Virus record (IMG/VR): IMGVR_UViG_3300024265_001017
Span: 1 to 59,520 of that record
Strand: one strand, 5' to 3'
DNA: 59,520 nucleotides
Source: a virus
Lineage: Duplodnaviria; Caudoviricetes
Shown here: piece by piece, positions 47,813 to 52,011 of the stretch
Numbering within the stretch: the first letter of the stretch is position 1
How the letters are laid out: each line of letters opens with the position of its first letter
Program-made: the position numbers and the translations under genes
The notes under the pieces: model-generated
What the model was told of the DNA's origin: nothing
Database searches by the model: none
What the model saw: the letters and a program-made list of their open reading frames with translations, nothing else

Positions 47813-47889
47813 TGGGCCACATGCAGGCATCGAACCTGCGACCTTCCGCTTACAAGGCGGATGCTCTGCCGGGTCTGAGCTAATGTGGC
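47813..47889 (-). tRNA. tRNA-Thr(UGU)
   Basis: GCCACAU/AUGUGGC acceptor, GCUC/GAGC D-stem, UCCGC-CUUGUAA-GCGGA, GCAGG-UUCGAUG-CCUGC. Confidence 0.92.
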
Positions 47890-47953
47890 ACAATGCTTGG
47901 TAGCCGCTTCGCCAACTTTCCCCTGGAGGATAGGCGCGTGTACCAAGCACTTG

Positions 47954-48024
47954 TTCTAGGTGCTGGGGTCGAACCAACGTTACCGGATTCAAAGTCCAGC
48001 GTCCTACCATTAGACGAACCTAGA
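47954..48024 (-). tRNA. tRNA-Gln(UUG)
   Basis: UCUAGGU/ACCUAGA acceptor (U1-A72), CUGGA-CUUUGAA-UCCGG, GUUGG-UUCGACC-CCAGC. Confidence 0.9.
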
Positions 48025-48030
48025 ATATAG

Positions 48031-48098
48031 CGAGCCTGGAAGGGATTGAACCCTCTGCTGGAATTTTGGAGACTCCTGCCCGGCCCACCAACAGACTC
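48031..48098 (-). tRNA. tRNA-Trp(CCA) with shortened D-arm
   Basis: GAGUCUG/CAGGCUC, G73, GGAGU-CUCCAAA-AUUCC, GAGGG-UUCAAUC-CCUUC; only 15 nt in the D region. Confidence 0.7.
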
Positions 48099-48396
48099 AT
48101 TTCTTTTTCTTCTTCTTCTTGTGTACAGTACGGTGACAATTGGCGCAAACAGGGATGCACTTCTTTAACTCTGCATGAAGTGCCTTATCGCTCGTACTAG
48201 TAGCGACATATAAAGCGTGGGGCCGTGATGCTGGTTTCGGCGTGTGATGAAAGTCGCAACACTCCGGTCGTCCCTTAAACGAGAAATTACAAATCTTACA
48301 CTTGAGCGTTTCCTTGTAGTTCGTGAGCCAGCGTCTTCGCCCTTGCTTAGCTCTTCGCCGTCCTACAACGTCTTGGGTAGGTTTCTTCTTACCCAT
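48097..48396 (-). CDS. HNH-like endonuclease (terminase-associated)
   Basis: C..C...DFHH...C..VCANCH..VH. Confidence 0.75.
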   Translation of the reverse strand: MGKKKPTQDVVGRRRAKQGRRRWLTNYKETLKCKICNFSFKGRPECCDFHHTPKPASRPHALYVATSTSDKALHAELKKCIPVCANCHRTVHKKKKKKK

Positions 48397-48614: not shown

Positions 48615-50129
48615 TTAGTTAGCTGGATACCAATAGTCTATCTGTTCATTAGCGACTTCCTTTGGCTGTCTCTTTGAGCCGCCTGGCACTATTATATCAT
48701 TAACTGCGGTCATGTTGTCAATCGGCGCGTAGACCAGCATTAAGCCGTCAGCCTTATCGGGAGAGCGCCCAATCTCTTTCTTTATCTGGTCTTTCTTTAG
48801 CACCCTCACCTTGCCGTTGATAATGTTGTACTTGGTAGCGCATAACTCCTCTTTTGTTTCCTCGTCAATGTTCGCGGCTATCTTGTCGTTCACGTAAATT
48901 TTTCTGAGATGCCAGTAGAACTCCGACCGCTGATTGGCACAGTCGTCATCCCCACTCTTTCCGTTCCCTGTATACTCGAAGACGTTGAGCTTTTTCTGTA
49001 TCCGTAACATATCGGCAACTCCCGCTCCAATACCAACCGCATCTACAGCGACCGGGGCTGAGGGGTCAACTCTGCGTATAATATCTCCAGCCCATTCGGT
49101 CAAACTCACCAAGTCAAATTTATGGAACTCTTTTGTAATCTCTAGTCGCTCGCCGCGGCGGTATCTCAGAATTGAGCTATCGCGTCCCAGCCGTGCAACG
49201 TCAAGCCCCCACTGATTTGTGCCGTGTGTCGAGCCGTTCCTCTTCTGAGCTTGTATGATTTTGTCAAGGGGGATAAGGGAATCGACCGCGCCGGTCGGGA
49301 ACTCACCAAATACCTTGGCTATGAAGAGGGGATTGCTCTCTCCGCCCCACTCGATGTACTTTCTACCGACCCATGCTGGGTGAATGAGCGCCGGGAAGGG
49401 CACTTTCTTACCTTCGAGCTTGCCTTCCCAGTCTCCAGTCCGTATATCGTCCATTGTTATACCCATCTCCAGAAAGTTCGGGGTATCGAACGCGCTGATT
49501 GTGAATTTTTTGAAGTGAGCCATTTCATGTGAGTGGAAGAAGTAGCCGGTAAGTGAATCTGGGTTGGATATCAGTAGCATCCTCGAATGCTCACCAGTCA
49601 TCAGTGTGGAGAGCGCATCAAAGACGGGCATTGGGATACCGGCAGCTTCATCGGCAACCAAGAGAAAGTTCAAAGAGTGGAATCCCTGAAAGTTTATCTC
49701 GTCATCCGATGCAAACCCCAGCGCAAAGTGGTCAGGGGCGATTTTAAGCCCTTTAGTAAGCACCCGCCATATCCAAGGGTAGGGTGGATTCGCTTTAGCG
49801 AACTGTGTATTGATTTCAGCCCACAATAAATTCTCTATCTGATTATTAGTTGTTGCCGTTGTCATAACTTTGGAGGGAACGTAGCCCTGGAGGAAAAGCA
49901 GAACAACGGTCGCCGCGAGAAATGTCTTACCGCTCGCGTGACAGGACTTTACGGTTACAAAGGGGTTATTGAAACAAGCTTCTATAATCTCTTGTTGGAT
50001 TTGCCAGTACTTATACGGAAAGCGGGTCTCTGCATACTGAACCGGCGTTTGTCTACATGCCCTGCGGTTCAACAGTTCCCGCTTATACTCCGTTATCTTT
50101 TGCTGTTTTTGTTTTTCACTCAGATTCAT
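48615..50129 (-). CDS. terL: terminase large subunit
   Basis: VKSCHASGKT (Walker A), VADEA (Walker B), ISNP, GLDVAR.G.D, VDA.G.G, SPD.AD. Confidence 0.93.
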   Translation of the reverse strand: MNLSEKQKQQKITEYKRELLNRRACRQTPVQYAETRFPYKYWQIQQEIIEACFNNPFVTVKSCHASGKTFLAATVVLLFLQGYVPSKVMTTATTNNQIENLLWAEINTQFAKANPPYPWIWRVLTKGLKIAPDHFALGFASDDEINFQGFHSLNFLLVADEAAGIPMPVFDALSTLMTGEHSRMLLISNPDSLTGYFFHSHEMAHFKKFTISAFDTPNFLEMGITMDDIRTGDWEGKLEGKKVPFPALIHPAWVGRKYIEWGGESNPLFIAKVFGEFPTGAVDSLIPLDKIIQAQKRNGSTHGTNQWGLDVARLGRDSSILRYRRGERLEITKEFHKFDLVSLTEWAGDIIRRVDPSAPVAVDAVGIGAGVADMLRIQKKLNVFEYTGNGKSGDDDCANQRSEFYWHLRKIYVNDKIAANIDEETKEELCATKYNIINGKVRVLKKDQIKKEIGRSPDKADGLMLVYAPIDNMTAVNDIIVPGGSKRQPKEVANEQIDYWYPAN

Positions 50130-50538
50130 CGTCGTCGCTCCTGAACTGTGAGCAGTCGATACCCTCTGCTTCCAACATGTTCATAATTTCGTCGTCGGTG
50201 GCCTCTGCCTTCCGCTTATCGTCTATAGCAATGTTCTGGTCAACCTTGAAGTTACGGGTATCTTTCCAGTCCTCGGGATAGCGATTCTGTAGATAATACA
50301 TGATAGCAAATCGGTCGCCCTCGACAGCCAGAGTAGCTAAGCGAGACTCAATAGCGAGTCGAGCGTTCGCCTCCGCGTCTTCGACCGCCTTCCTGAACTT
50401 CGGGACACCTTTCATCCAGTCGTAAAATGTTCGCCGTCCGATTCCTGCCGCTCCGAACGCGGCTGAGCGCGTACACCCAGCTGCCAGCGGAGTAGTGATA
50501 GCTTCTTGTACTTGCGGTGTGAGCTTATAGGGAACCAT
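50116..50538 (-). CDS. terS: terminase small subunit (HTH); start uncertain (50538 or 50598)
   Basis: KLTP...G.....A...AGI...TFY.W.....F..AV..AEA...A...L..R.P..W; directly upstream of terL. Confidence 0.75.
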   Translation of the reverse strand: MVPYKLTPQVQEAITTPLAAGCTRSAAFGAAGIGRRTFYDWMKGVPKFRKAVEDAEANARLAIESRLATLAVEGDRFAIMYYLQNRYPEDWKDTRNFKVDQNIAIDDKRKAEATDDEIMNMLEAEGIDCSQFRSDDDESE

Positions 50539-50600
50539 GCACAAGGCCACAGTAGCCCTTGCGTTGGACAGACACGTTATGCTTGCTTTTAAGTTCATAG

Positions 50601-50667
50601 AGCGTCCAGGTCGGAACCGCACCGCCTCACTTAGCTGGAAACCAAGCTGCTGCTATTAGCTAGACGC
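50601..50667 (-). tRNA. non-canonical D-arm-less tRNA-Gly(UCC)-like RNA
   Basis: GCGUCUA/UGGACGC + U73; CUUGG-UUUCCAG-CUAAG; GGCGG-UGCGGUU-CCG(A)CC; 67 nt. Confidence 0.75.
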
Positions 50668-50674
50668 GAATACT

Positions 50675-50703
50675 ATTATATCACTTGCCACCCTTACTAT
50701 CAA
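50675..50703 (-). promoter_or_regulatory. strong sigma70-type promoter for the tRNA-Gly-like RNA and terminase
   Basis: TTGATA-17 bp (ending TGA)-TATAAT; predicted +1 at about 50668-50667. Confidence 0.7.
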
Positions 50704-51463
50704 TCTTCCGCTTCGGATACTCAACGGTGAGCGGTTTCACGTATGTCATAATCCGCTCCCGCTCCTTGCCAGTCGCAAGAACATAAACGTACCGCCACTT
50801 GGGGTTGGTTCGGTTCTCCTTCCAACCGGCTGCAAGGAACTTTTGCCGTAGTTGGCTCCACGATAGGTTCGGGCATTTGTTAATCTTCGTGTCGTGTATA
50901 ATCTTCTGGTCGTAAATTTTGCCGTTTGGATGTATGAGCTGAGTGGTACGCCCGCCCTTCCCTATACAAATCCAATTGGTCGCTTGATATAGGGTTCCTA
51001 TTTCGCCTGCATCGGTGTCCGAGTAGGCTATCGCTATTTTGCGGCCTTTCTTTTTCTCCATCTTCAATGAGTAAGAAATGAGCTTGCTTCCCGTGCCCTT
51101 CGGTGTCCAATGGGTACATGCACCGCGGGCAAGGTAGGCCATCTCTCGCTGGTCAACCCCCAATTGCTCCGCTACCCGGTTCCCAGCCGGGCTACCAAAG
51201 CAGCAAACACCACCGCAGTAGTACTTATCGAAGAATATACCGTAGTATGTACGGCAAATAGGTAGTGTACCAAGCCATTCGTAGTGCAAAATGATTTTCT
51301 GGGCCACTTTACGGGTGGTCTGCCTCACTTTCGCTGATTTAAGGTGAGGTTCACCGCTTGGACGGGGGGCAACGTCCGCTTTCGACGGGTCTGCGGCGAT
51401 TTGCTCCCGTATTTGGCGCTGATACGCCTTATTTGACGCTTTCTCCCTAAAAGTCTGTCCCAT
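50681..51463 (-). CDS. mom: Mom-family (GNAT-fold) DNA adenine hypermodification protein
   Basis: G...FG.P, L.R......P....S.LI..SL, AYSD...GE.GT.YQATNW..IG, K.RYVY.L, YPK. Confidence 0.8.
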   Translation of the reverse strand: MGQTFREKASNKAYQRQIREQIAADPSKADVAPRPSGEPHLKSAKVRQTTRKVAQKIILHYEWLGTLPICRTYYGIFFDKYYCGGVCCFGSPAGNRVAEQLGVDQREMAYLARGACTHWTPKGTGSKLISYSLKMEKKKGRKIAIAYSDTDAGEIGTLYQATNWICIGKGGRTTQLIHPNGKIYDQKIIHDTKINKCPNLSWSQLRQKFLAAGWKENRTNPKWRYVYVLATGKERERIMTYVKPLTVEYPKRKIDSKGGK

Positions 51464-52011
51464 TAGCCGATATCCGCCTCTATTTCATACTTTTCGAGCA
51501 ATTCAAAGAGGTCTTCCCGTACAGCGTCAAAGTCAGCGACCGCAAATGTAAGAATCACCGAGTCGTCCGGTGAGGGTTCGGCCCCACCACCAGGCAACAT
51601 GCTCTGGTTGAACTGGGCAGTGAGCTTTTGTATCTCCTTCGTGTCAAAGCCCGTCACCTCTACATCCGGCAGCTTCACCTCAAGCTCTGTAAGCAAGTCT
51701 GTGAGTTTCGGGATATCCCAGCCGCCCCCTATCTTGTTTAGAGCGAGGTTGAGTGCCTTCTCCTTCTCCACTGTCAGGCTAACGATACTAACGGTCACTA
51801 CCTCGTCGCCCCGAGCCTGCAATATCTTGAGGCGTTGGTGACCGCCCACAAGGTTGCCGGTCTTCTCGTTCCAGATTAGAGGCTCAACCAAGTCGAACTC
51901 TTCCAGTGACTTCACCAACTTGTCGTAGTCTGGGTCACCAGGCTGTAGGTCTTTGCGCGGGTTGTACTCCGCTGGATTGATTAGACCGATTGAAATATCC
52001 TTTATCTCCAC
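51463..52011 (-). CDS. ParB/Srx-like N-terminal domain protein
   Basis: PA.YNPRK.L.PGD..Y.KL..S..EF..VEP..WN..TG.LVGGHQRLK.L...EKALN.ALNKI.G.WD. Confidence 0.88.
   Translation of the reverse strand: MEIKDISIGLINPAEYNPRKDLQPGDPDYDKLVKSLEEFDLVEPLIWNEKTGNLVGGHQRLKILQARGDEVVTVSIVSLTVEKEKALNLALNKIGGGWDIPKLTDLLTELEVKLPDVEVTGFDTKEIQKLTAQFNQSMLPGGGAEPSPDDSVILTFAVADFDAVREDLFELLEKYEIEADIG

What the first reader, a model, noticed from the sequence alone, without database searches (positions are those of the whole stretch)
50601..52011. Mom-type DNA hypermodification enzyme paired with its own D-arm-less tRNA-Gly(UCC): candidate dedicated glycyl-donor system
Seen: the Mom-like gene (50681-51463; AYSD...G.IGT.YQATNW) ends inside a near-consensus promoter (TTGATA-17-TGA-TATAAT). 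Its predicted +1 coincides with a 67-nt RNA: GCGUCUA GCUAAUAGCAGCAG CUUGG UUUCCAG CUAAG UGA GGCGG UGCGGUU CCGACC UGGACGC U. This RNA keeps the bacterial GlyRS identity elements (G1-C72, C2-G71, G3-C70, U73, C35 C36). It lacks a normal D-arm and the D-loop GG, has UGC in place of UUC in the T-loop, and has a bulged A in the T-stem where EF-Tu binds. It lies 2.5 kb from the other tRNAs. Established: Mu Mom is a GNAT-fold enzyme making N6-carbamoylmethyl-adenine, and staphylococcal non-proteinogenic tRNA-Gly species evade EF-Tu to feed GNAT-fold Fem ligases. I recall recent work reporting Gly-tRNA as the Mom donor; this should be verified. Inference: the phage encodes a translation-incompetent glycine carrier that channels Gly to DNA modification, with the ParB-like gene as a possible third component. 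Standard tRNA finders would probably miss this RNA.
Basis: partly seen in the sequence, partly recalled or inferred. Interest (0 to 1): 0.92.

Follow-up and report, generated by a model that had tools for sequence, protein, structure and literature searches.

The report
Mom enzyme with its own tRNA-Gly-like RNA
A phage DNA-modifying enzyme of the Mom family sits next to a conserved, oddly shaped glycine-tRNA look-alike, and the same pairing recurs in well over a hundred other viral and bacterial sequences, which suggests these enzymes bring their own glycine carrier.

Summary
ORF 50681-51463(-) is a Mom-family GNAT (Pfam PF25680, E=1.8e-23). The 67-nt RNA at 50601-50667(-) is missed by ARAGORN and by Rfam's tRNA model. 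A covariance model built only from RNAs next to other Mom homologs finds it at E=1.6e-7.

The pairing is general. 58 of 107 Mom loci carry this RNA on the same strand, abutting the Mom core. Conversely, 74 of 80 viral loci picked by an RNA-only motif carry a Mom homolog on the same strand.

The cloverleaf covaries: 97.5% of cells pair against 67.5% in shuffles. Conserved are G1-C72, C2-G71, U73 and C35C36, the bacterial GlyRS identity set, plus a bulged A in the T-stem. U33 and N34 are not conserved.

Mom is published to use Gly-tRNAGly (PMC13219725). Best reading, about 0.6: a dedicated, probably non-decoding glycyl donor. Expression, charging and EF-Tu evasion are untested.

"D-arm-less" is overstated, because a mini D-arm and a covarying A18/G55 elbow remain. 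The ParB link is weak. My searches found no report of this pairing.

The parts
50601..50667 (-). 67-nt tRNA-Gly-like RNA. Acceptor 50667-50661 with 50608-50602. Mini D hairpin 50660-50649. Anticodon arm 50646-50630 with U34C35C36 at 50639-50637. 3-nt variable region 50629-50627. T-arm 50626-50609 with bulged A at 50611. Discriminator U at 50601. No CCA is encoded.
   Evidence: Sequence. R1 covariance model, not trained on it, gives 38.5 bits, E=1.6e-7. Conserved with compensatory changes in L128 and L129. Missed by ARAGORN and by the Rfam tRNA model.
50675..50703 (-). Sigma-70-type promoter-like site: TTGATA, 17-nt spacer, TATAAT, with an extended -10 TG. The predicted start is at or next to G1 of the RNA, 7 nt after the -10.
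   Evidence: 11 of 12 matches, TG present. (4 such sites in the window against 0.9 expected). The -10 and its 7-nt spacing to G1 are kept in L128 and L129. Function is inferred, not shown.
50681..51463 (-). Mom-family GNAT, 260 aa. The presumed reaction is glycyl transfer from Gly-tRNA(-like) to N6 of adenine in dsDNA. R113 and S126 align with the catalytic R111 and S124 of Mu Mom.
   Evidence: Pfam PF25680 E=1.8e-23. PHROG 1384. hhalign against Mu Mom gives 96.9% probability. The profile hits PDB 8bv8 'Methylcarbamoylase mom' at E=6e-8.
51463..52011 (-). ParB-like N-terminal domain protein, 182 aa. Its stop overlaps the mom start. It is a neighbour, not a demonstrated part of the system.
   Evidence: Pfam ParB_N E=6e-4, below the cut-off. 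PHROG 620 at 2.7e-38, and the N-terminal part of the phage DNA methyltransferase PHROG 498. tblastn relatives lie in 12 of 107 Mom loci.
50116..50538 (-). Terminase small subunit, first gene downstream of the RNA. I chose the ATG at 50538 as the start. The mechanical ORF beginning at the GTG at 50622 would overlap the RNA.
   Evidence: PHROG 4102 at 1.5e-14. Pfam Sf6_terminase, weak. terS relatives follow the RNA in 10 other loci.
48615..50129 (-). Terminase large subunit. It provides context: the Mom-RNA module sits directly upstream of the packaging genes.
   Evidence: PHROG 2 at 1.6e-30.

Best explanation
The window is part of a phage genome. Its Mom-family enzyme is paired with a dedicated, structurally altered tRNA-Gly.

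Proposed mechanism:
1. The RNA is transcribed late, from the extended -10 promoter that overlaps the end of mom and/or by read-through from mom.
2. Its 3' end is trimmed after U73 and CCA is added.
3. The host's bacterial-type GlyRS charges it with glycine through G1-C72, C2-G71, U73, C35 and C36.
4. It carries a bulged A in the T-stem, where EF-Tu reads tRNA, and in most relatives a closed 5-nt anticodon loop without U33. The glycyl-RNA is therefore probably kept out of translation and reserved for Mom.
5. Mom transfers the glycyl group to N6 of adenine in double-stranded phage DNA.
6. The adduct rearranges to N6-carbamoylmethyl-adenine, which protects the DNA from restriction just before packaging by the terminase encoded immediately downstream.

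Shown here: Mom family membership, a conserved covarying tRNA-Gly-like fold, and tight two-way gene-RNA linkage.
Taken from the literature: the Mom chemistry and the GlyRS identity set.
Inferred: expression, processing, charging, exclusion from EF-Tu and the ribosome, and use by Mom.
For: Enzyme:
- Pfam Mom E=1.8e-23.
- hhalign against Mu Mom gives 96.9% probability, with R113 and S126 aligned to the catalytic R111 and S124.
- PDB 8bv8 at E=6e-8.

Chemistry:
- Mu Mom uses Gly-tRNAGly. Gly-tRNAAla does not work, so the tRNA body matters (PMC13219725, abstract and sections 10 and 14).

Linkage, forward direction:
- Of 35 viral Mom loci, 24 have the RNA on the same strand within 200 nt of the Mom core, and 3 more have it further away.
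- Of 72 genome Mom loci, 34 have it so placed.
- In 3'-type loci the RNA starts -8 to +7 nt from the codon equivalent to window R252 where the Mom match reaches the C-terminus; two loci with truncated matches extrapolate to -18 and -29, and the window's own offset is 40 nt.

Linkage, reverse direction:
- The 26-nt RNA-only motif gave at least 120 viral stretches.
- Of the 80 fetched, 74 have a Mom homolog, all 74 on the RNA's strand.
- 5 of the other 6 have the RNA at a contig edge.
- The sixth has a different GNAT beside it.

Whole genomes:
- In 5 of 5 genomes the top model hit is the Mom-adjacent RNA (67-83 bits).
- The six next-best hits that I fetched (51-61 bits) are the hosts' canonical tRNA-Gly genes, without the bulge.

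Structure:
- RNAalifold on a plain MAFFT alignment gives a cloverleaf in which 18 of 22 pairs show compensatory changes.
- On 53 RNAs, 97.5% of cells pair against 67.5% in shuffles and 36-44% in slid controls. Double-change cells number 310 against 72.6.
- An independent 78-RNA set gives 98.3% against 72.1%.

Identity:
- G1-C72 in 52 of 53, C2-G71 in 53 of 53, U73 in 51 of 53, C35C36 in 52 of 53.
- These are the determinants listed for bacterial GlyRS in PMC10464925 (passages read).

Non-decoding features:
- U33 in only 18 of 53.
- N34 is A 24, U 21, C 5, G 3.
- Positions 32-38 are Watson-Crick paired in 45 of 53.
- The loop is 5 nt in 37 of 53.
- The bulged A is present in 49 of 53.
- L128, whose Mom is 90% identical to the window's, has the loop AGACCAU.

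EF-Tu and precedent:
- EF-Tu reads three T-stem base pairs (PMC3239215, abstract in the search listing).
- S. aureus non-proteogenic tRNAGly bind EF-Tu poorly and are preferred by FmhB (PMC7826273, abstract).
Against: - No expression data exist. No RNA run holds this sequence, which is a blank and not evidence either way.
- Mu Mom works with all three host tRNAGly isoacceptors, so a private donor is not required in principle.
- None of 13 cultured phages examined, including Mu, has the RNA within 1.5 kb of its Mom-like gene.
- About half of the Mom loci lack it within the DNA fetched.
- The window's RNA is a low-scoring member (38.5 bits, below the hosts' true tRNA-Gly against R2). It has a shortened D-arm and no nucleotides 8-9.
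- PMC10464925 reports that a bacterial GlyRS needs the arms and the L-shape, so charging of this copy is uncertain.
- Its anticodon loop is canonical (U33, U34), so decoding of GGA/GGG by this copy is not excluded.
- In most relatives the RNA lies inside the Mom reading frame (26 of 30 3'-type and 16 of 18 5'-type loci are open through it). This is odd for a free-standing tRNA gene and fits a cis-acting role as well.
- The covariation counts come from model-fitted alignments and related sequences, so they overstate independence.
Confidence: 0.62

Rival explanations
1. The element is a cis-acting tRNA mimic. It stays in the mom mRNA and acts as a regulatory site. For example, Mom or GlyRS could bind it to throttle translation of mom or of the coupled terS, or it could act as a processing or stability signal. 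In this reading it is not released as a glycine carrier.
For: - The RNA is usually embedded in the Mom reading frame. The frame is open through it in 26 of 30 3'-type and 16 of 18 5'-type loci, against 21 and 13 of 30, and 12 and 9 of 18, in the other two frames.
- In 3'-type loci the Mom stop often overlaps the next gene's start, as TGATG.
- In 5'-type loci such as L160 no start codon lies between the RNA and the Mom core.
- Mu mom is known to be under translational control by Com (annotation).
Against: - C35C36 and the whole GlyRS identity set are kept, and CCA is encoded in 33 of 53.
- The G18/U55 to A18/G55 elbow covariation argues for a complete L-shaped, chargeable tRNA.
- The element works on either side of Mom and, in the window, L023 and L137, outside the ORF, sometimes with its own promoter-like site.
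- L206 has two tandem copies.
Confidence: 0.15
2. It is an ordinary, somewhat divergent phage tRNA-Gly(UCC) that supplements translation of GGA/GGG codons. Its position next to mom would be synteny within a phage lineage.
For: - The window's anticodon loop is canonical (U33, UCC, A37).
- The phage has other tRNAs (Thr, Gln).
- In L128 the RNA heads an array of canonical tRNAs (Asn, Ala, Leu).
- In L027 a canonical tRNA-Gly lies in an array near Mom.
- ARAGORN calls a few family members tRNA-Gly: L017/18, L021, L069, L084.
Against: - The linkage holds across the whole Mom tree, on both sides of the gene.
- It also holds in bacterial genomes that already have canonical tRNA-Gly genes.
- U33 is present in 18 of 53, and A34 (anticodon ACC) in 24 of 53.
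- The T-stem bulge is conserved in 49 of 53 and is absent from the host tRNA-Gly genes.
- The Rfam tRNA model passes only 2 of the 18 loci in that search that carry the RNA.
Confidence: 0.08
3. It is a decaying tRNA remnant or a recombination or attachment site (a tRNA-gene integration scar, or the joint of a mobile Mom cassette) with no function of its own.
For: - Phages often integrate at tRNA genes.
- The window copy is truncated in the D region and lacks CCA.
- L024, sister of L023, has lost the RNA.
Against: - Full-length copies show compensatory changes in all four helices.
- The RNA lies inside phage genomes between mom and terS, not at prophage ends.
- The same special features recur in at least 129 distinct sequences.
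Confidence: 0.03

Closest known systems
Phage Mu Mom with host Gly-tRNAGly (Silva et al., Nat Commun 2026, PMC13219725)
   Same: The enzyme family is the same (Pfam PF25680), and the catalytic Arg and Ser are conserved. The presumed chemistry is the same: glycyl transfer from charged tRNAGly to N6-adenine in dsDNA, followed by rearrangement to carbamoylmethyl-adenine.
   Different: Mu has no such RNA near mom, and the paper describes scavenging of host tRNAGly. Here, and in at least 130 other loci, the enzyme gene carries its own atypical tRNAGly-like gene, often inside its reading frame. The window protein is only about 21% identical to Mu Mom over the aligned region.
Non-proteogenic tRNAGly of Staphylococcus aureus feeding FmhB/FemA/FemB (PMC7826273)
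   Same: The logic is the same. A tRNAGly is charged by the normal GlyRS, binds EF-Tu and the ribosome poorly, and is preferred by an aminoacyl-tRNA-dependent transferase of the GNAT-related fold. Its special determinants lie in the D and T arms (abstract).
   Different: The acceptor there is a peptidoglycan precursor, not DNA. Those are chromosomal genes of one bacterial genus, not a virus-borne gene-RNA module. The structural devices here are not those described for staphylococci: a bulged A in the T-stem, a closed 5-nt anticodon loop, and an A18/G55 elbow. EF-Tu evasion is untested here.
Ordinary phage-encoded tRNAs and tRNA arrays
   Same: It is a tRNA-shaped gene in a phage genome. In L128 it heads a canonical tRNA array.
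   Different: It is not recognised by ARAGORN or the Rfam tRNA model. U33 and the wobble base are not conserved. It is locked to one enzyme gene on the same strand.
Aminoacylatable 3' tRNA-like structures of plant RNA viruses (recalled, not checked here)
   Same: It is a tRNA mimic that forms part of a longer viral RNA and ends in or near CCA. In 3'-type loci it lies at the 3' end of the mom message.
   Different: Those belong to RNA genomes, use pseudoknotted acceptor arms, and serve replication and translation. This one is a true cloverleaf in a DNA phage, can also lie 5' of the gene, and is tied to a tRNA-dependent enzyme.

Membership tests
Mom family (Pfam PF25680; Mu Mom, PDB 8bv8) | Profile match above the curated threshold | tested here: met
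   83.7 bits against a cut-off of 27.1, E=1.8e-23, residues 45-236. PHROG 1384 at 3.1e-32.
Mom family (Pfam PF25680; Mu Mom, PDB 8bv8) | Homology to the characterised Mu enzyme and its solved structure | tested here: met
   hhalign of A1 against Mu Mom gives 96.9% probability, E=2e-10, over Mu residues 37-241. The A1 profile hits 8bv8_A at E=6e-8.
Mom family (Pfam PF25680; Mu Mom, PDB 8bv8) | Catalytic R111 and S124 of Mu Mom (PMC13219725 abstract) | tested here: met
   Window R113 aligns with R111 and S126 with S124. R113 is invariant in 39 homologs.
Mom family (Pfam PF25680; Mu Mom, PDB 8bv8) | HTH-like insertion (Mu residues about 175-209) needed for activity | tested here: inconclusive
   The region aligns with few gaps, but I predicted no structure.
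Mom family (Pfam PF25680; Mu Mom, PDB 8bv8) | Makes N6-carbamoylmethyl-dA from Gly-tRNAGly | not testable with these tools
   Needs an enzyme assay, or LC-MS or SMRT analysis of virion DNA.
Bacterial tRNA-Gly (substrate of alpha2-beta2 GlyRS) | Identity set G1:C72, C2:G71, U73, C35, C36 (PMC10464925) | tested here: met
   All are present in the window RNA. In the family: 52 of 53, 53 of 53, 51 of 53, and 52 of 53 for CC.
Bacterial tRNA-Gly (substrate of alpha2-beta2 GlyRS) | Cloverleaf with covarying acceptor, D, anticodon and T helices | tested here: met
   The hosts' tRNA-Gly genes are the next-best hits of the family model. The window copy has only a 3-bp D stem.
Bacterial tRNA-Gly (substrate of alpha2-beta2 GlyRS) | Recognised by standard tRNA detection (ARAGORN, Rfam RF00005) | tested here: not met
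   The window RNA is not found. ARAGORN of 34 genome copies. RF00005 passes 2 of the 18 RNA-bearing loci in that search.
Bacterial tRNA-Gly (substrate of alpha2-beta2 GlyRS) | Regular 5-bp T-stem | tested here: not met
   An extra A lies between pairs 51-63 and 50-64 in 49 of 53 RNAs, including the window (50611). The flanking pairs covary. Host tRNA-Gly genes lack it.
Bacterial tRNA-Gly (substrate of alpha2-beta2 GlyRS) | U33 and an open 7-nt anticodon loop (a decoding tRNA) | tested here: inconclusive
   The window has U32 U33 U34 C35 C36 A37 G38, which is canonical apart from a possible U-G closing pair. In the family U33 is present in 18 of 53, positions 32-38 are Watson-Crick paired in 45 of 53, and A34 is present in 24 of 53.
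Bacterial tRNA-Gly (substrate of alpha2-beta2 GlyRS) | G18G19 with U55C56 elbow contacts | tested here: inconclusive
   The window has a D-loop AAUAGC and a T-loop UGCGGUU. Across 129 RNAs: U55 with GG 40, U55 without GG 9, G55 without GG 67, G55 with GG 11. This suggests an A18/G55 substitute pair. The geometry was not modelled.
Bacterial tRNA-Gly (substrate of alpha2-beta2 GlyRS) | Is aminoacylated with glycine | not testable with these tools
   Needs a GlyRS assay.
Non-proteogenic tRNAGly (staphylococcal type) | [quoted passage not shown] | not testable with these tools
   Inferred only from the T-stem bulge and the loop features.
Non-proteogenic tRNAGly (staphylococcal type) | Member of the lineage described as confined to staphylococci (PMC7826273 abstract) | not tested
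   I made no sequence comparison with the S. aureus NP tRNAs. The hosts here are diverse and non-staphylococcal.

The most novel reading that the evidence does not exclude
Across the whole Mom family, including a Mu-like clade, the ancestral unit may be a self-contained enzyme plus co-substrate cassette. Its parts would be a GNAT and an orthogonal, non-decoding tRNAGly whose bulged-A T-arm and A18/G55 elbow are read by Mom and rejected by EF-Tu.

The RNA gene is threaded in frame through the enzyme's own ORF, at the N- or the C-terminal end. Each transcript would then either be translated into Mom (and coupled TerS) or be cut by the tRNA-processing enzymes into the glycine carrier. That would be a built-in switch setting the enzyme-to-donor ratio and the timing of DNA hypermodification before packaging.
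Probability: 0.2. Interest if true: 0.95.

Novelty: new variant of a known kind. Interest (0 to 1): 0.88.

Why it matters
The glycine source of Mom was settled only recently, and it was described as scavenging of host tRNA.

If many Mom enzymes carry a private, non-decoding tRNAGly, three things follow:
- tRNA-dependent DNA hypermodification becomes a two-gene, enzyme-plus-RNA system.
- It would be the first viral counterpart of the staphylococcal non-proteogenic tRNAGly/Fem partition.
- It would be a natural example of an orthogonal tRNA-enzyme pair.

There are practical consequences as well:
- It explains why gene callers extend Mom ORFs by 20-50 codons.
- It explains why tRNA finders miss a common phage RNA.
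- It provides a covariance model to annotate that RNA.
- It defines clear experiments on how an aminoacyl-tRNA is kept away from EF-Tu.
- It may matter for expressing metagenomic Mom homologs, which might need their RNA to be active.

Tried and rejected
- Single-sequence thermodynamics: the 67-nt RNA folds no better than shuffles (z=-0.41). The 152-nt intergenic stretch gives z=+1.03. This was uninformative.
- Rfam at E<=10 on 50300-50900 gave only two chance hits, to a snoRNA and an sRNA.
- The search for related loci with the single Mom protein in viral contigs found no relative.
- An exact 25-nt piece of the RNA found nothing in viral contigs.
- blastn of the 2-kb region against named phages hit only ParB-like genes at about 70% identity.
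- 13 named phages with Mom-like genes had no RNA within 1.5 kb, best E=1.6 with filters off. They were Mu, A511, LP-026, Thornton, Riggi, JeffCo, HGTV-1, Lifes, Lupine, CRP-902, P12002L, f2b1 and Vibrio 501E54-1. No cultured model phage was therefore found.
- A second model, R2, was run with filters off on 20 of the 45 Mom loci in which R1 found no RNA at all. It added only L054 (E=1.3e-6, about 620 nt upstream) and L033 (E=6e-4). The other 25 were not re-searched.
- ParB as a partner: 12 of 107 loci. Rejected as a core component.
- The integration-site idea was rejected because the RNA lies between mom and terS inside phage genomes.
- Sequencing runs: no RNA holder is listed. One DNA run may be the source sample. 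I did not lay reads.
- One Rfam call was over the size limit and was repeated with fewer sources.
- One paper reading 'find' call failed on a 2-letter term and was not repeated.
- Literature: searches for Mom with bacteriophage Mu and glycyl-tRNA; 'momylation'; Mom with tRNA-like, GNAT and phage; 'Mom-like' with tRNA; and carbamoylmethyl with adenine, phage and tRNAGly turned up no report of a Mom-linked tRNA.
- In PMC13219725 I saw the abstract, sections 10 and 14, and 'find' passages. 'Phage-encoded tRNA' and 'encode tRNA' had 0 hits.
Full report
**1. What is in the window**

The window is a 59.5-kb IMG/VR virus record. On the minus strand the order is as follows:
- a ParB-like gene (51463-52011)
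- a 260-aa ORF (50681-51463)
- a 142-nt gap
- terminase small subunit (50116-50538) and large subunit (48615-50129)
- an HNH endonuclease
- tRNA-Gln and tRNA-Thr

The 260-aa protein is a Mom-family GNAT:
- Pfam PF25680 gives E=1.8e-23, and PHROG 1384 gives 3.1e-32.
- A profile of 39 homologs aligns with Mu Mom at 96.9% probability. It places window R113 and S126 on Mu's catalytic R111 and S124.
- The same profile hits the Mom crystal structure 8bv8.

The promoter-like site TTGATA-17-TATAAT with an extended -10 TG is present at 50703-50675. The mom stop codon forms its TG. It is one of 4 sites in the window with at least 11 of 12 matches, against 0.9 expected.

ARAGORN and Rfam's tRNA model do not see it. 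Its folding energy alone is unremarkable.

**2. The RNA is a member of a large conserved family that travels with Mom**

An alignment-based scan for Mom homologs gave 35 viral loci.

ARAGORN called a tRNA-Gly(UCC) touching the 3' end of Mom in L017/L018 and L021. A simple stem search then showed a tRNA-like element at the same place in nearly all closer homologs.

RNAalifold on a plain MAFFT alignment of 12 of them, without the window, gave a four-arm cloverleaf. In it, 18 of 22 pairs carry compensatory changes, and a single A is bulged in the 3' strand of the T-stem.

The covariance model built from these 12 (R1) finds the window RNA at 38.5 bits, E=1.6e-7.

In the forward direction:
- 24 of the 35 viral loci have the RNA on the Mom strand within 200 nt of the Mom core. 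Three more have it further away, and 8 have none.
- 34 of 72 Mom loci from bacterial and archaeal genome assemblies have it so placed. One more has it on the opposite strand.

Placement is precise:
- In the 3' type the RNA begins -8 to +7 nt from the codon equivalent to window R252, the end of the conserved PYPKR motif, in loci whose Mom match reaches the C-terminus. Two loci with truncated matches, L101 and L105, extrapolate to -18 and -29. Mu Mom itself ends at PYPK.
- In the 5' type the RNA ends 1-34 nt before the conserved core, or 100-170 nt in a few loci.
- The window is a 3'-type locus with an unusually long offset of 40 nt, which holds the promoter.

Of the 80 fetched:
- All contain a full-length match to the model.
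- 74 contain a Mom homolog, and every one of these is on the RNA's strand.
- 5 of the remaining 6 have the RNA at a contig edge.
- The sixth (L137) has it beside a different GNAT and upstream of terS/terL.

These 74 include clades whose nearest query in my 97-protein Mom panel is Mu itself (32-40% identity), JeffCo, Riggi, CRP-902, HGTV-1, LP-026, Thornton or P12002L. The RNA is therefore spread over the whole family.

On a FastTree of 97 Mom proteins the presence and side of the RNA cluster by clade: 14 changes against 42.7 in shuffles. Rows shorter than 150 aa, rows with stops, and identical rows were dropped first. The window's clade is 20 of 22 3'-type.

None of 13 cultured phages examined, including Mu, has the RNA near its Mom-like gene.

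In 5 whole genomes the best hit of the family model is always the Mom-adjacent RNA (67-83 bits). The six next-best hits that I fetched are the hosts' canonical tRNA-Gly genes (51-61 bits), which lack the bulge.

**3. Anatomy**

Pairing on 53 distinct RNAs:
- 97.5% of helix cells are standard pairs.
- Column shuffles give 67.5%, and slid partners give 36-44%.
- 310 cells changed on both sides, against 72.6 expected.
- 20 of 22 pairs covary.

An independent, motif-selected set of 78 RNAs gives 98.3% against 72.1%. These alignments are fitted to the model and the sequences are related, so the numbers are generous. The RNAalifold result does not depend on the model.

Conserved features:

| Feature | Count |
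|---|---|
| G1-C72 | 52 of 53 |
| C2-G71 | 53 of 53 |
| 3-70 as G-C | 48 of 53 |
| 3-70 as C-G | 5 of 53 |
| U73 | 51 of 53 |
| C35C36 | 52 of 53 |
| A37 | 42 of 53 |
| bulged A in the T-stem | 49 of 53 |
| encoded CCA | 33 of 53 |

The first four of these identity positions plus C35C36 are the determinants given for bacterial alpha2-beta2 GlyRS in PMC10464925.

Features not conserved:
- U33 is present in 18 of 53.
- The wobble base is A 24, U 21, C 5, G 3.
- Positions 32 and 38 form a Watson-Crick pair in 45 of 53.
- This leaves a 5-nt loop in 37 of 53.

Host tRNA-Gly genes in the same genomes have U33, the D-loop GG, UUCGA T-loops and no bulge.

Across 129 distinct RNAs, T-loop position 55 and the D-loop covary:

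| Position 55 | D-loop | Count |
|---|---|---|
| U | GG | 40 |
| U | no GG | 9 |
| G | no GG (..AGC..) | 67 |
| G | GG | 11 |

The window RNA (AAUAGC with UGCGGUU) belongs to the A18/G55 class. The 'missing GG' and the 'UGC T-loop' are therefore one tertiary covariation, and the elbow is probably intact.

The window RNA lacks nucleotides 8-9 and has only a 3-bp D stem. Similar truncations recur in relatives such as L003, L010, L014-L016, L023 and L037.

Its two nearest relatives have Mom proteins 90-91% identical to the window's. Both keep the mini D hairpin, the T-arm and the promoter spacing. L128 has changed 3 acceptor pairs and the whole anticodon stem compensatorily. Its loop reads AGACCAU, which is not a decoding loop.

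**4. How it most likely works**

Mom is published to take glycine from Gly-tRNAGly and not from Gly-tRNAAla (PMC13219725).

The RNA keeps what GlyRS needs and loses what the ribosome needs. It also carries an insertion in the part of the T-stem that EF-Tu reads (PMC3239215, abstract in the listing).

The closest precedent is the staphylococcal non-proteogenic tRNAGly, which avoids EF-Tu and is preferred by FmhB (PMC7826273, abstract).

I therefore read the RNA as a dedicated glycyl donor for Mom, made together with the enzyme just upstream of the packaging genes. My confidence is about 0.6. Expression, processing, charging, EF-Tu exclusion and use by Mom are all inferences.

**5. What does not fit neatly**

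- Mu needs no private tRNA, and about half of the Mom loci show none within the DNA fetched.
- In most relatives the RNA lies inside the Mom reading frame:

| Locus type | Mom frame open through the RNA | Other two frames open |
|---|---|---|
| 3' type | 26 of 30 | 21 and 13 of 30 |
| 5' type | 16 of 18 | 12 and 9 of 18 |

- In 3'-type loci the Mom stop often overlaps the terS start.
- In 5'-type loci such as L160 the only start codons lie upstream of the RNA. A transcript can then hardly be both translated and processed.
- This leaves room for a cis-regulatory reading, or for a translate-or-process switch.
- The window avoids the conflict. Its mom has its own stop, and the RNA has its own promoter-like site.

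**6. ParB**

The neighbouring protein is a ParB N-terminal domain, of the kind fused to phage DNA methyltransferases (PHROGs 620 and 498). tblastn relatives of it lie in 12 of 107 Mom loci, 3 of them without the RNA. It is a frequent neighbour of DNA-modification genes, not a demonstrated third component.

**7. Novelty**

My literature searches and the text of the Mom papers that I could read contain no mention of a Mom-linked tRNA.

- The enzyme is a new member of a known family.
- The enzyme-plus-private-tRNA module is a new variant of the 'non-proteogenic tRNA feeding a tRNA-dependent transferase' theme. It is the first such case for DNA modification and for viruses.
- It is evidently common, with at least 129 distinct RNAs seen here.

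Noticed in passing
L002-L020, L037-L104 (3' type); L051-L099, L160 (5' type): The Mom reading frame usually runs straight through the tRNA-like element, adding 20-50 codons. In 3'-type loci it often ends in a TGATG overlap with the next gene (terS). The frame is open through the RNA in 42 of 48 loci, against 33 and 22 of 48 for the other two frames.
   Followed up: partly
L206:6277-6420 (-): Two tandem copies of the Mom-type RNA, 55.1 and 54.6 bits, at a contig edge.
   Followed up: no
L137:35-631: The same RNA (60.1 bits, TCCA end, TATAAT 13 nt upstream) lies convergent to a 173-aa GNAT. That GNAT hits Pfam Acetyltransf_1, not Mom, and is followed by terS/terL. The RNA may therefore serve another GNAT subfamily.
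   Followed up: partly
L128:2302-2611: In the phage whose Mom is 90% identical to the window's, the Gly-like RNA, with CCA encoded, is followed at once by canonical tRNA-Asn, tRNA-Ala and tRNA-Leu. ARAGORN calls those three but not the Gly-like RNA.
   Followed up: partly
L030/L031:3897-3971 and 2145-2220: A canonical tRNA with anticodon CAU sits directly upstream of Mom, at the place where the sister locus L034 has the Gly-like RNA. The Gly-like RNA of L030 lies 1.8 kb further upstream.
   Followed up: no
L055:1979-2092: This family member is 114 nt long, with an insertion of about 38 nt in place of the anticodon loop. It could be an intron-like insert or an extended arm.
   Followed up: no
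window 48097-48396 (-): An HNH endonuclease (PHROG 2255, 6.4e-13) lies just downstream of the large terminase, the common HNH-terminase pairing. tRNA-Gln and tRNA-Thr follow at 47814-48024.
   Followed up: no
window 3427 (+), 33653 (-), 43668 (-): Three further near-consensus sigma-70-type promoters, with 11-12 of 12 matches and 17-nt spacers. With the one at 50703 that makes 4, against 0.9 expected from shuffles. This hints at a host with classical sigma-70/sigma-A promoters.
   Followed up: no
L102 (genome contigs): The highest-scoring RNA (91.1 bits, with U73 and CCA) lies on a contig binned as a Woesearchaeota archaeon MAG. U73 is the bacterial type, so this is either a mis-binned phage contig or an interesting exception.
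   Followed up: no
window 51463-52011 (-): The ParB-like protein matches the N-terminal 33-179 of the 633-position PHROG 498 (DNA methyltransferase). It is therefore the stand-alone form of a domain otherwise fused to phage methyltransferases.
   Followed up: partly
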